From the NCBI GenBank assembly GCA_965261595.1, contig CBDHDG010000006.1, positions 128,001 to 192,000 on the forward strand: a stretch of DNA of 64,000 nucleotides. The letters run 5' to 3'. Position 1 is the stretch's first letter; each line of letters starts with the position of its first letter. The position numbers were made by a program. The DNA is from a bacterium. GTDB taxonomy: Bacteria; UBA8248; JACPRG01; G963555815. This document shows, piece by piece, positions 40,401-46,400 of this stretch.

Positions 40401-43400
40401 ACCACGCGAAGAAGACCTTTCTTTTCGATGAGCGGATGAGCCGCGGCGCGCTGGGCGAAGCCGGCGCGGGAAAGACCCGCTACAAGGTCTGGGTCGGGAG
40501 CTGGCGGGCGGAAGCCCTGGGGCCGGACGCGGGAGCGGCGCACCGGTTGGCGGCGGAGAGCGCCGGCTTCGGCATCGACCTGAAGGTCCGGCCGAGGAAA
40601 CCGCCCGTCATTCACGGCCTGGACGGGACCAGCCGAAAGGGCGCCGCCGCCGGGCAGGCCTCCCACTACATCTCCCTGACCCGGATGGAGGTCTCGGGGA
40701 CACTGTGGATTGGCCCGGGCGCGAAGCGGAGAAAGCTGGCGGTCACCGGCTCGGCCTGGATGGACCACGAGTTCGGGTCGAGCCAATTGGGAAAGGATCA
40801 AGTGGGCTGGGACTGGTTCAGCTTCCAACTGGAAACCGGAGCGGAGGTCATGCTTTACCGGATGCGCCGGAAGGACGGCTCGGTCGATCCGTTCTCGAGC
40901 GGGACCTGGGTCGGCCAAGACGGAAAGACCCGTCACCTGCCGCGAGGGGCCTTCGAGGTGAAGGTCCTGAAAACCTGGAAGAGCAAGAAGTCCGGCGGGG
41001 AATACCCGATCCGCTGGCGGGTCCGCATCCCGTCTCGAAGGGCCTCCTTTTTGGTCGAGCCTGTTTTTCCGGAACAGGAGCTGGTCACGCGGAAGAGCAC
41101 GAAGGTGACGTACTGGGAAGGGGCCGTGCGGGTCAGCGGCGAGGCGGAGGGCAAGCCCGTCCGGGGGAGAGGGTACGTCGAGATGACCGGCTACGCGGGG
41201 GCGTTTCGGAAGAAGATTTGAGTCTATTCAACCCGAGTCAGGGCCGGTGCAGATGCCGGCCGGCTCGCGCCCAGCCGCTTCTGCATGGCCGACGATGGAC
41301 GCGCATGGAGATCTAGGGGCGGGGCGAGAGTCGGTTGACTCCTGTACCCGCCCTTGTTGATGCAGACTTCGAGGGGCGTAGAGAATCTCGCTTAATGCCT
41401 GATAATTCCAGACATCTTCGCCGCTCTCACGAGGTCCTCCCCTGCTTTCTTCTTATTGCCCGCACGAGGGAAATAGGTTAGATGTAGAATGAGGGCTTTT
41501 TCTCGAATGACTCCCTTATACTCTCCACGGATATCCTTGAGTTTGCTTGAGAGTTTTATTTTCGATGGAACACTGCATCCATGGGTTCTTAAAATAGAAC
41601 GTACAGGTGCTTTCCCAAAAGCTATCACTCGACCGGGTTCAATAAGCTGCAATTCGCGTCCGAAATGATATGGAGCACACAAATCGATAACTTCTATAGG
41701 TGGATTTTCGAATCCAGCTTTCTCAGGGGCAATTGCACATTTTACTGCGTGAATGAATGCGAGCCCACGATCCAATAATTCGCTCCATTCAAGCTCCAGT
41801 GCGTCCGCAATAAATTTTCGAAGATTGTCATTTGGATCATTGGTTGCCGATTTTGCCGGCAATTGTTCCTGAACACTCTTTTTATAAGGTGGAGCAATTC
41901 CGACCACGAGAAGTCTGACGGATCTCCTATGTAATTCAGTCTGTTGACGAATATTGCATTCGACTTTGTGAAAGTCCTTACATCTGTCACAATGCCATAT
42001 TGCTTTCTGGATTTCCTGCCAAACAACGGACGCTGAATCCATTTGTTCGTAAACTCCAACAGACGCTTCGCTTCGCTCAGGATGACATGGAAAGCAAAAA
42101 TCCTGCTTCGGGACAAAAATAGAGGGTGGGATCTTTCGCCGGAATTCTCATAAACAAGTTCTCTTTGATGAGGCCACTAGGAGAATTGCCCTTGGGGTCT
42201 TTTCTCAGATCGTGGCCGATGCACCCATCGGTCCTCTTTCCGGGCGGGTACGGAGCCCCGCCCCTACATCTCAAATCGGGATCGGATCGCAGATTACTTG
42301 CGCCCTACCGTAAGGAAGATTGGATTTTCCAAGAACACTGGATCGGTGGCGGGAACGGGAAAGAACTGCCGCCATGGGAACTCGCGCCTCGAAAGACCTG
42401 TAGGGGCGGGGCTCTGTACCCGCCCCTCTTGATGCGGAACACCTAATACAACTCCCGAATCTTGCCCAGGACCTCCTCGACCGGCATCACGTCCGCGTAC
42501 TTCGTCCCCATGTCGAACAGGTTCGAGCGGTGCGGGGCCTCGGCCCGATCTCCCACGCATTCCTCCGGGACGATGGTCCGGAACCCGTACTGGAGGGAGT
42601 CCACGACCGTGGCGCGGACGCATCCGCTCGTCGTCGCCCCGGTGACGATCAGGGTATCCACCCCCAGGGCGATCAGCTCGCTGGCCAGGGCGGTCCCGAA
42701 AAAGGCCGACGGGTACTTCTTGACGATCAGGCGCTCGGACGGCCGGCGGCCGAGCCGCCCGTCCAATTCCACGTCCCGGGCGCCTTCCTTGAGGGTGTCG
42801 AGGGACGGGAATTTTTCCACCCAGACCCCCGCGTCGCTCAAGTCGTGGCGATAAGCCACCGATGTGAAGAAGACGGTCAGCCCTTTGTCCCGCGCCGCGT
42901 CCAGGAGACGCCGGTTCTGCTTCACCACTTCGGTCAGGTCCGTCCCCAGCGTGCAGCTCGGATCCGTGAACCCGTAGCTCAGATCCACCACCACAACGGC
43001 GGCCTTCCGACCGAATCCCACCTTGCCCGTGATTCCGGCCTTCTGATAAAGGTCCCGGGCCTCTTCGAACCCGCCCTTGTCCGCCACGGCCACCTCCTAG
43101 TTTTCGGGTGGATGGTTCCCAAGCCTGTAGAATCTTATGAAGACAGACGGCTAAACTCAAGAGACCTTGCACTTCGGGACGAAGGAAAGGAACCCTCTGG
43201 ATGAGCGAAACCCGCCGCGGCGTGTTGCTCCTGGAACCCTTCTACGGCGGCTCCCACAAGGCCTTCGTGGACGGGCTGAAGCGGCATTCCCGCCACCGCG
43301 TCGAGGCCCTCACGCTCCCGGATCGCTTTTGGAAGTGGCGGATGCGGGGGGCCGCCATCCTGATGGCGGACCAGATGAAGAAATCCCTCCGGAGGCCGCC

Positions 43401-46400
43401 CGAGGTCATCCTGGCCTCCGACATGCTCAGCGTCGCCGACCTCAAGGCCCTGCTGGGCCCGGCCGCTCCTCCCATCCTCCTTTACATGCATGAGAACCAG
43501 CTTTCCTACCCCCTCCCGGAAGGCGGGCGCGGGGATCTCCAGTTCGCCTTCACCAACGTGACTTCCTGTCTGGCCGCGGAGAAGGTGCTGTTCAACTCGG
43601 AATTCCACCGGGAAACTTTTCTGAAGGCCCTGCCCGCGCTGTTCCGGATGATGCCCGATTGCAGACCCAAAGGGGTCCCCGAGCGGATTCGGGAGAAGAG
43701 CTCGGTCCTCCCGCTGGGATGCGATCTCGCCGCGTTCGACTCCATCCGGAAGCCCGCAAGCCGTCCGGGCCCTCCGATCATCCTGTGGAATCACCGTTGG
43801 GAATTCGACAAAGCGCCCGAGGATTTCTTCGAAGCGCTGTTCCGGTTGCAGGCGGACCGCCTCCGGTTCAGGGTCGCCGTGTGCGGAGAAACCCATCAAG
43901 CAAAACCCAAAATTTTTCTGGAGGCGAAGAGAAGGCTGCGGCGGCGGTTGGTTCACTTCGGCTTCGAGCCGTCCCGGGCGCGCTACGCGCGGCTGTTGTC
44001 CGGATCCGACATTGCGGTCTCGACGGCCATTCAGGAGAACTTCGGCCTTTCCGCCGTCGAGGCCATGTACGCCGGCTGTTATCCCCTCCTTCCCCGCCGC
44101 TTGAGCTACCCCGAGATCCTGCCGGCGGAATTTCACGCCGGACACCTCTACGACGGCCCCGAGGACCTCTACGCGCGGCTGAGCACACTCTTGCGGGAAG
44201 GCGCAACCTTCGACCCGGAGCGATTGCGGCGGCGCATGGCCGTCTATGACTGGAGAGCGATGGCCCGGCGGTATGACGACCTGTTCGATGGATGCGGAAG
44301 AGCCCCTTGAATCCATTCCAAGGCCCCGCCCGAAGACGACGCACGGAGGCCCCGTTCAAACCCGCTCGAAAACCGCCCGGTGGATAGGATGGCCGGCCCC
44401 GGCCATTTTGACCTCGAAGTTGGTCGGGACATATCCCGCCCGCTCCATTCGCCCCGCCGGGTCGTCCAAAGGCCGGAACGCCGGGTTCTCCCCCACCATC
44501 GCCGTAATCACCCCGAAGTACTCTTCCACGTCGGAAGCGATGTAAAGCTGTCCCGACGGGATCAGGGTGCGCGCGAAGTCTTCCAGGAGAATCGGCGTAA
44601 AAATCCGCCGCTTCTTATGGCGCTTTTTCCACCAGGGGTCCGGGAAATAAACGTGGTAGGCCAGAACGGAGGCCGGCGGAATCACGTCATGAATAAGGGG
44701 GAGCGCGTCGGTGATGACAATCCGGACGTTTCGGAGGTCGCGCTTTTGGATCCGGGGCCGCGCGATTCGGAAATAGCTCAGCTTTCGCTCGATGCCGAAG
44801 TAGTTCACCTCCGGAAACCGCTCGCCAGCGGTGATGAGAAACCGCCCCTTGCCGAATCCCACCTCGATCTCGACCGGGCGGTCGTTGCCGAATAATTCGG
44901 CCCAGCGCGGCCGCTTCGCGAGATCTTGGAGGGGGACTTCGGGGTCGAAGGGTTCCTGGGCGTGGTTCGAGGGTGCCATGAGCATCCTTCGCCCCGCACA
45001 GATCCGGACGGCCGGGCCGAATCCGGCGCGACGCGGCGGGGAGAGGGGGGGGGGGAACAAAAAAAGGGCCGGCGACCCGAGCAATCCGCTCCGGGCGCCG
45101 GCCCTGGACCTCTTCCTCACGGGAAGGTCAGTTGAGAATGTCCTTGAGCATGGCCATCCGGCCCTGGCCCCGCAGGCGCCTGAGGGCCTGCTTCTCCAAC
45201 TGTCGGATCCGCTCGCGGGACAGGTTCATCTGCTCGCCGATCTCCTGGAGCGTCATCGGCTCGCCCGCGAAACCGTAGCGCATCCGGAGAATTTCCCCTT
45301 CGCGCTTGGGCAGGGTGGCGAGGGCCGTCAGGAGCTGATTCGAAATGGCCGAGCGGTTCAACCGATCCTCGGCCAGATTGTCGTTTCCGTCGGTGAGCAG
45401 GTCAACGTGATTGATGCTGTCCGCATCCCCGAGGGGCGCATCGAGAGACAGGGCCTCCCGGGCGGCCTTGAGCATCACAACCTCCTCGGGAAGCTCGTCC
45501 ATCGCCTTGGCGATCGCCTCCAGGGAAGGCTCCTCTCCCGAGGCCTGCTCCATCTCGCGGATCATTTCCCGGACCTTCAACCGCTTCTGGGCCTGCTTGA
45601 CCGAGAGGTGAACCGCACCGCCTTGGGAGGCGATGGCGTGAACCATGGCCTGGCGAATCCACCACACGGCGTACGTGATGAAACGAACGCCCCGCTCCGG
45701 GTCGAACCGCTTGGCGGCCTCGATCAACCCGATGTTGCCTTCATGGATGAGGTCCGCCATGGTGACGCCGCAACCCTTGTACCGGTTAGCCACGCTCACC
45801 ACATAGCGGAGGTTGCTCCGGATGAAAAGCTCCCAGGATTTCTTCTGGCCCCGCTTTGCGCGCTTGATGACCTTCTGCTCCATCTCCCGATCCAGGACCG
45901 GGATCTCACGGATGGAGGCCAGGTAAGCGCTCAACGCATCGGGCGCAACTGTCTGGGCGCGCTGCTTTTCCGGAGCCTCTTCTTGCTTCTCGACCTTGTC
46001 CAACATACCACTCATTGCTCGTGCCCTCGATTCTGAAAGAGAATTGACTGCTGATTTTGCAAAACGCAAAACAAAGAGCAGGTGCAATCTCTCTCGATCG
46101 CTCCCTGCTCCCACCCATCCTACGCTGACATTGATCGCCAATCACCAATCCTGTGGTTGTGCTTATCTCCTCTTCCGATGACCACTCCGACATCCGACAG
46201 AGATAACCTGCTTTTCTTAAAGTAGTTTATTCACGTTCATATGTCAATCATTAAATAGGTATTTCGCCTATTTTTTCTGGGTCTGGAAGCCGAATTATCG
46301 TATAAAAAACCAAATATCAATAAGTTACATAAAGACCGATCCAATTCCACCACCACGCCGGATCCCGCGTTTTCATCGGGATCGATTCACAACCACTTGT

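What a model noticed while it worked through the whole genome (the two positions that open the first line are those of the whole stretch)
43201..44979. Bacterial orthologue of the animal tRNA queuosine mannosyltransferase QTMAN beside trmB, in a genome with the full queuo [...]
g03122 (369 aa) is a full-length relative of animal QTMAN/GTDC1, which mannosylates queuosine-34 of tRNA-Asp, a modification described only from animals. It stands outside any polysaccharide locus, convergent with trmB, and the genome makes queuosine de novo. A sugar-modified queuosine is predicted in bacterial tRNA.
Evidence so far: All five Swiss-Prot hits are QTMAN (37%, E 4e-61); QTMAN_N plus GT4 domains; QTMAN_N is in 6871 bacterial genomes; queC, D, F, tgt, queA, queG present. 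In the 80 best of at least 582 loci the gene is mostly without other glycosyltransferases, and 2 of 8 nearby tRNA genes are tRNA-Asp(GUC). 20 of 20 carrier genomes tested have queA against a bacterial base rate of 0.749. Model pLDDT 91.
(Added by a program. Inside this text positions count along the whole contig: contig position 128,001 is position 1 of the stretch shown here. "Call 12" and the like, gene names such as g00115 and contig names such as C1 are that model's own, and its searches are not shown. The text may have been shortened before it was handed on; [...] marks where a part breaks off. The agent that wrote the report below was given it as the finding of a first reader that could run no searches.)

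Follow-up and report, generated by a model that had tools for sequence, protein, structure and literature searches.

The report
Bacterial relative of tRNA sugar-adding enzyme
This bacterial gene closely resembles the animal enzyme that attaches a sugar to a modified base in transfer RNA, so some bacteria may carry a tRNA sugar mark thought to be animal-only, but this is a prediction from sequence, not a measurement.

Summary
The gene is real: window 43201-44310 (+), 369 aa, QTMAN_N plus GT4 domains, single copy, 37-41% identical to animal QTMAN in both domains, against at most 20% to any solved structure. 54 positions are shared by 141 diverse representatives and 23 animal QTMANs, 21 of them in the acceptor-side domain. 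The family is patchy (25/201 Desulfobacterota, 32/151 Planctomycetota, 7/201 Spirochaetota), almost always single copy, not found on plasmids or phages, and missing from all 14 control model genomes. So a bacterial glycosyl-queuosine could have been overlooked.

trmB is convergent and adjacent only in this family. Co-occurrence with Q genes is uninformative (tgt in 73/74 carriers, but 215/218 non-carriers). None of 19 nearby tRNAs is Asp. No Q gene lies in 192 loci. GluQ, which uses the same hydroxyl, is not excluded.

New supports: a fusion to a SpoU RNA methyltransferase, a co-oriented m5C RNA methyltransferase in spirochaetes, and a place in the tsaE-tsaB-tsaD operon in probable Acidimicrobiia.

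Verdict: about 0.6 that it glycosylates tRNA queuosine. Untested, and a family-wide prediction rather than a special locus.

The parts
43201..44310 (+). QTMAN-family (DUF3524/PF12038) GT-B glycosyltransferase, 369 aa: QTMAN_N residues 8-173 (acceptor side), GT4 donor domain about 182-334
44356..44979 (-). trmB, tRNA m7G46 methyltransferase, 207 aa (start could be two codons earlier); convergent neighbour, kept only in this family
44311..44355 (.). 45-bp gap between the two stop codons; no terminator-like site called in it
42443..43093 (-). Isochorismatase-family hydrolase, divergent upstream neighbour (107-bp gap); context only

Best explanation
[quoted passage not shown] SHOWN: family, fold, conserved residues, single copy, presence of tgt/queA/queG/queF, of a mannose-1-phosphate guanylyltransferase-like gene and of all four GUN tRNAs. 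INFERRED from GT4 knowledge (recalled): R199/K204 and E279-x7-E287 bind the nucleotide-sugar; H19, W44, W46, R47, H97, E98, Q100, Y103 and D112 shape the acceptor site. INFERRED by homology only: that the acceptor is Q34. About 0.6 for glycosylation of tRNA queuosine; about 0.4 for specifically mannose on tRNA-Asp.
For: 37-41% identity to animal QTMAN in both domains against at most 20% to any solved structure; a long stem separates the family from three other GT4s. 54 positions shared by at least 80% of 141 representatives (50% clusters, unnamed, taken as mostly bacterial) and at least 90% of 23 animal proteins, 21 in the N-terminal domain. One match per genome in 25 of 25, 7 of 7, 31 of 32 and 4 of 4 carriers. 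No match in 72,556 plasmids or 50,697 phages. tgt in 73 of 74 carriers tested. A divergent member outside the animal clade is fused to a SpoU RNA methyltransferase (P0124/P0125); crustacean members carry RRM domains. An RsmB/F-type RNA methyltransferase follows directly on the same strand in 7 of 16 spirochaete loci. In 11 of 12 metagenome loci of the alr type the gene lies upstream of tsaE-tsaB on one strand, 10 of them extending to tsaD. QTMAN_N rang in 0 of 14 control model genomes, which could explain why no bacterial manQ is reported. Mosquito manQ sits on tRNA-Tyr (PMC11705514, passages), so the target tRNA can vary.
Against: No activity data. Q-gene co-occurrence has no power: tgt in 215 of 218 non-carriers. 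Two of 25 Desulfobacterota carriers (G201, G213) show neither queG nor queH, against 1 of 55 non-carriers, and carrier G044 shows queA but no tgt, queG or queH; all may be assembly gaps. GluQ and manQ take the same allylic hydroxyl (PMC10690763, PMC12518689, passages), yet gluQ is not excluded: 3 of 25 against 15 of 176 (p 0.47) and 8 of 32 against 47 of 119 (p 0.15). No Q gene in 192 loci, 1.89 Mb. Among 152 immediate neighbours of 84 groups, about 5 independent RNA/translation links are matched by about 4-5 glycan links. The animal stem is long (0.8) with fixed differences next to conserved motifs (K45/H, M48/A, N119/Q, H136/N). The family is not basic overall (median net charge -5). The SpoU fusion is one 90% cluster of 2 unnamed sequences.
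Confidence: 0.6

Rival explanations
1. A housekeeping GT4 acting on a small metabolite or a membrane lipid (in the manner of MshA, BshA, PimA or a pterin glucosyltransferase); animals later recruited the family for tRNA.
For: Nearest solved folds are such enzymes (sucrose-phosphate synthase Z 31.2, rmsd 3.0, 340 aligned; BshA Z 29.4, rmsd 3.5, 330 aligned). Such enzymes are also single copy and chromosomal (recalled). A GT4 plus SAM methyltransferase cluster lies downstream in 8 loci, mostly Desulfobacterales, a GT-C/GT4 pair upstream in 2 of 12 alr-type loci, and GT4/GT9 genes near L062. Long animal stem; no linkage to Q genes; gluQ coexists.
Against: Those folds share only 11-20% identity. 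The acceptor-side motifs are kept between bacteria and animals as well as the donor side (37% against 39%). Glycan neighbours are lineage-limited; the GT-C/GT4 pair reads as an insertion between alr and the gene. SpoU fusion.
Confidence: 0.25
2. It recognises the queuine moiety or RNA but not Q34 in mature tRNA: it glycosylates free queuine/queuosine (storage or salvage), or another modified base of tRNA or rRNA.
For: Explains conserved acceptor residues together with lack of gluQ exclusion and the modest charge; neighbours are RNA enzymes of mixed targets (m5C, t6A, m7G, 2'-O-methyl).
Against: No salvage or transporter gene for Q was seen as a recurring neighbour; the animal enzyme acts on tRNA (10.64898/2026.06.28.735034, introduction).
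Confidence: 0.12
3. A cell-surface polysaccharide or LPS glycosyltransferase, as automatic annotation says ('involved in cell wall biosynthesis').
For: Source names; L062 lies near GT4/GT9 genes; lpxD is convergent in three Planctomycetota groups.
Against: Only 4 of 150 scanned immediate neighbours are glycosyltransferases; single copy; high conservation across phyla; none on plasmids or phages; no other glycosyltransferase called in this window.
Confidence: 0.03

Closest known systems
Animal QTMAN (GTDC1), tRNA-queuosine alpha-mannosyltransferase
   Same: QTMAN_N plus GT4 domains in the same order, 37-41% identity, 54 near-invariant positions, single gene.
   Different: Bacterial host; lacks the 60-100 residue linker of vertebrate proteins; a few fixed residue differences; donor, acceptor and tRNA species untested.
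DUF3524 / PF12038 bacterial proteins
   Same: This is an ordinary member; databases already name such proteins 'tRNA-queuosine alpha-mannosyltransferase domain-containing protein' (P0079); 1070 clusters at 50% identity with E up to 1e-30.
   Different: No function was found in print for any bacterial member.
GluQ-RS (YadB), bacterial glutamyl-queuosine
   Same: The known bacterial decoration of Q34 on tRNA-Asp, on the allylic hydroxyl (PMC10690763, passages).
   Different: Unrelated enzyme adding a glutamate ester; not found in this genome (best hit is a 478-aa GluRS-length frame below cut-off); coexists with the family elsewhere.
Retaining GT4 enzymes MshA, BshA, PimA/PimB', sucrose-phosphate synthase
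   Same: GT-B fold (Z 25-31 for the top rows) and E-x7-E donor motif.
   Different: 11-20% identity; sequence similarity only in the C-terminal domain (MshA E 0.0014).

Membership tests
QTMAN / PF12038 protein family | QTMAN_N domain over the curated cut-off followed by a GT4 domain | tested here: met
   204.8 bits against 25; Glycos_transf_1 55.6 against 26.4
QTMAN / PF12038 protein family | Residues invariant in animal QTMAN are kept | tested here: met
   53 of the 54 shared positions are identical in the window protein (E127 for D is the exception); 8 positions differ between representatives and animals
QTMAN / PF12038 protein family | Groups with animal QTMAN apart from other GT4s | tested here: met
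   Family branch SH-aLRT 99-100 against three GT4 outgroups
QTMAN (strict orthologue) | Resolved descent relative to the animal clade | tested here: inconclusive
   Free trees nest animals among Planctomycetota rows with unstarred support; AU test does not reject bacteria as one clade, p 0.58
QTMAN (enzyme) | Host has queuosine in tRNA | tested here: met
   Genes only: tgt, queA, queG, queF over cut-off, queC-like below it, four GUN tRNAs; Q itself not measured
QTMAN (enzyme) | Family never occurs without Q machinery | tested here: inconclusive
   tgt in 73 of 74 carriers but 215 of 218 non-carriers; no genome of a Q-poor phylum could be reached
QTMAN (enzyme) | Donor is GDP-mannose | tested here: inconclusive
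   manC-like gene in this genome (251 bits, below the bifunctional cut-off); 23 of 25 carriers against 49 of 55 non-carriers
QTMAN (enzyme) | Transfers mannose to the allylic hydroxyl of Q34 in tRNA-Asp | not testable with these tools
   Needs LC-MS/MS or an in vitro assay
Polysaccharide/LPS GT4 | Lies in a glycan biosynthesis cluster | tested here: not met
   No other glycosyltransferase family called among 52 window proteins scanned; 4 of 150 immediate neighbours in relatives

The most novel reading that the evidence does not exclude
Several bacterial phyla (Desulfobacterota, Planctomycetota, Spirochaetota, Acidimicrobiia and this lineage) put a sugar on tRNA queuosine. RNA glycosylation of Q would then be a bacterial trait missed because model bacteria lack the gene, and in genomes that also have GluQ the two enzymes would compete for one hydroxyl or divide the GUN tRNAs between them.
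Probability: 0.55. Interest if true: 0.75.

Novelty: new variant of a known kind. Interest (0 to 1): 0.55.

Why it matters
Sugar-modified queuosine is described from animals, with glutamyl-Q as the bacterial form (PMC10690763 abstract; the 2026 compendium PMC13602947 has no hit for manQ, mannos- or glycosyl-). A bacterial manQ would move the origin of this RNA glycosylation, give a compact linker-free enzyme for the structure that the PDB searches did not find, and give a simple genetic system for asking what the sugar does, for instance protection from anticodon nucleases, by analogy with the human result (10.64898/2026.06.28.735034, abstract). Cultured carriers exist (Desulfatibacillum alkenivorans DSM 16219, L065; Desulfonema magnum 4be13, L069), so one LC-MS run can test it. 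The homologues themselves are already visible in databases, and this locus is not special within the family.

Tried and rejected
trmB as a functional partner: rejected; convergent, 4 of 192 loci, closest kin only. tRNA-Asp linkage: 0 of 19 tRNA genes. Clustering with Q genes: none in 1.89 Mb; one or two would be expected by chance (my estimate). Profiles with tgt, queG/queH and manC: backgrounds of 89-99% leave no power. Mutual exclusion with gluQ: predicted by me, not found; I counted 55 short-frame hits as gluQ-like and set 6 long-frame genomes aside (with them 11 of 32 against 50 of 119, p 0.54; over cut-off only, 1 of 32 against 17 of 119, p 0.12). Origin of animal QTMAN from Planctomycetota: seen in free trees, not supported by the AU test. 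Phage or plasmid role: only 2 weak partial hits in viral contigs, none. Expression: one 186-nt contig over the gene's 3' end in one RNA library, no strand, not counted; RNA runs held under a tenth of the words. Promoter scan: none found. No solved QTMAN structure was listed. Whether Acidimicrobiia carriers have Q genes, the most telling comparison, stays open: no such genome could be searched. No complex prediction was run. The 2023 discovery paper (Zhao et al., Cell) was not held, so its text and supplements, which may show bacterial homologues, were not seen; bioRxiv supplements were not seen either.
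Full report
Observation. The ORF at 43201-44310 (+) encodes 369 aa with QTMAN_N (E 1.1e-60, residues 8-173) and a GT4 donor domain. trmB lies convergent at 44356-44979 and passes its equivalog cut-off. The other neighbours are an isochorismatase-family gene and a sigma-70 factor, and no other glycosyltransferase family was called among the 52 window proteins scanned. The genome (6.17 Mb, 96.7% complete) has one copy. Its closest named relatives come from Candidatus Tectomicrobia and Nitrospinota records. It encodes tgt, queA, queG and queF, a QueC-like protein below cut-off, a mannose-1-phosphate guanylyltransferase-like gene and one each of tRNA-Asp, -His, -Asn and -Tyr with GUN anticodons. 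gluQ was not found. queD was not searched.

Relation to animal QTMAN. I fetched animal sequences through a crustacean member. Identity to 23 of them, picked from the 120 listed, averages 37% in the N-terminal and 39% in the C-terminal domain. Of the 150 representatives at 50% clustering I aligned 141, after dropping 2 already held and 7 outside 340-430 aa. 54 positions are shared by at least 80% of these and at least 90% of the animals, 21 of them in the N-terminal domain; 8 positions differ between the two sets. In GT-B enzymes the N-terminal domain binds the acceptor and usually diverges fastest (recalled), so this is the main argument for a shared acceptor. The model (pLDDT 91.8) matches only generic GT-B structures at 20% identity or less. 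Trees put the family on a long stem apart from three other GT4s, with animals as one clade. Whether animals branch inside or beside the bacteria is unresolved (AU p 0.58).

Distribution. QTMAN_N was found in 3 of 41 relatives of this genome, 25 of 201 Desulfobacterota-centred genomes, 7 of 201 Spirochaetota, 32 of 151 Planctomycetota and 4 of 13 of an unnamed phylum; each count includes the carrier used as centre, and phylum names are taken from the centre's record. All carriers but one have a single match. Acidimicrobiia carry it too. It rang in none of 14 control genomes and in no plasmid or phage record.

Profile tests. tgt is present in 73 of 74 carriers (the miss is a 2.9-Mb assembly with queA), but also in 192 of 194 spirochaete and 23 of 24 planctomycete non-carriers (the first 24 by handle, of 119). 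queG or queH is present in 23 of 25 carriers and 54 of 55 non-carriers (55 of 176 tested; one search scored at most 22 candidates per genome). manC-like genes are in 23 of 25 and 49 of 55. Because glutamyl-Q (PMC10690763, abstract and passages) and manQ (PMC12518689, abstract and passages) use the same allylic hydroxyl on tRNA-Asp, I tested for exclusion of gluQ and found none (3 of 25 against 15 of 176; 8 of 32 against 47 of 119). This counts mildly against 'same site, same tRNA', less against the wider claim: mosquito manQ is on tRNA-Tyr (PMC11705514, passages). The single tRNA-Asp here has A38 where the human substrate has C38 (10.64898/2026.06.28.735034, abstract and introduction).

Neighbourhood. 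Across 192 loci (80 named genome loci kept of 565, 80 metagenome loci kept of 582, 32 from genome searches) no tgt, queA, queG, queC, queF or gluQ appears, and trmB appears in 4, all closest kin. None of 19 tRNA genes is Asp. For 84 groups at 62% identity I called 152 immediate neighbours with a rough ORF picker and scanned 150 (the other two were this family's known neighbours). RNA or translation links: trmB; a short RsmB/F-type methyltransferase directly downstream in 7 of 16 spirochaete loci; the order alr, QTMAN, tsaE, tsaB in 11 of 12 alr-type loci that group with Acidimicrobiia proteins (taxonomy inferred; the cluster is a general actinobacterial one, recalled); smpB-tyrS in 5 low-GC marine loci; rpsF once. 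Glycan links: a GT4/methyltransferase cluster in 8 loci, a GT-C/GT4 pair in 2, lpxD in 3 groups, a phosphomutase, and GT4/GT9 genes two genes upstream in L062. The rest are unrelated housekeeping genes. The balance is even; what it shows is a stand-alone gene outside polysaccharide clusters. The fusion to a SpoU RNA methyltransferase (2 unnamed sequences) lies on a long branch outside the animal clade and is a small independent hint of an RNA substrate.

Mechanism. Most likely a retaining transfer of a hexose from an NDP-sugar held by R199, K204, E279 and E287 to the diol of Q34, bound in the conserved N-terminal pocket. Fold, residues and gene content are shown; residue roles are inferred from GT4 knowledge; the acceptor is inferred from homology alone. 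I put 0.6 on tRNA-Q glycosylation, 0.25 on a metabolite or lipid acceptor, 0.12 on free queuine or another RNA base, and 0.03 on surface polysaccharide.

Novelty. The homologues are already labelled in databases. In the held library I found no report of bacterial manQ or of a function for them: 'QTMAN' with 'queuosine' gave 12 papers (listing), 'GTDC1' with 'bacteria' 36 (listing of 30), 'DUF3524' 0, the full enzyme name 0, 'bacterial homolog' 0 occurrences in the 10 of 37 listed, one search listed 5, and the 2026 compendium of bacterial RNA modifications has no hit for manQ (PMC13602947, term search over the first 300,000 characters). PMC11755703 (passages) speaks of mammalian cells only. The discovery paper was not seen. 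The finding is a plausible, cheaply testable family-wide prediction, weaker in its contextual support than first scored.

Noticed in passing
window 41364-42413: About 1 kb absent from the 93-97% identical relative L001, holding a 216-aa ORF at 44% GC (window about 64%) with a weak uracil-DNA glycosylase superfamily hit (E 4e-4); looks like a recent insertion.
   Followed up: partly
P0124/P0125: QTMAN-family protein fused to a C-terminal SpoU RNA methyltransferase, from unnamed metagenome records; organism unknown.
   Followed up: partly
L003, L007, L011, L015, L029, L030, L035, directly downstream of the QTMAN-family gene: A short (about 260 aa) stand-alone RsmB/F-type m5C RNA methyltransferase below every NCBIfam cut-off; its target RNA is unknown and could be a tRNA.
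   Followed up: partly
P0123, P0131-P0137, P0139, P0141, P0142: Crustacean QTMAN models carry N-terminal RRM domains across several orders; P0199 (a ribbon worm) carries an RWD domain.
   Followed up: no
window 46410-47096 (-): 228-aa ferritin-like protein with a weak MiaE-like hit (E 4e-4), kept in L001 and L002.
   Followed up: no
window 2-727, 24287-25351, 50929-52341; 21423-23784, 47437-49773: Three UbiD-family decarboxylase genes and two xanthine-dehydrogenase-type molybdoenzyme genes in 64 kb; the one at 21423-23784 was called in two pieces.
   Followed up: no
window 62285-63715 (+): selA; the genome also has a tRNA-Sec.
   Followed up: no
window 36578-41221 (+): ABC ATPase-like ORF, large permease-like ORF and a CrtC/lipocalin-domain gene in a row, conserved in L001 and L002.
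   Followed up: no
G000:C2:251626-252219 (L208): The only QueC candidate is divergent (73 bits against a cut-off of 150) and lies on another contig than tgt, queA, queG and queF.
   Followed up: partly
Planctomycetota sample: 37 short-frame GluQ-like matches fall just under the TIGR03838 cut-off, so the model undercounts gluQ in this phylum.
   Followed up: partly
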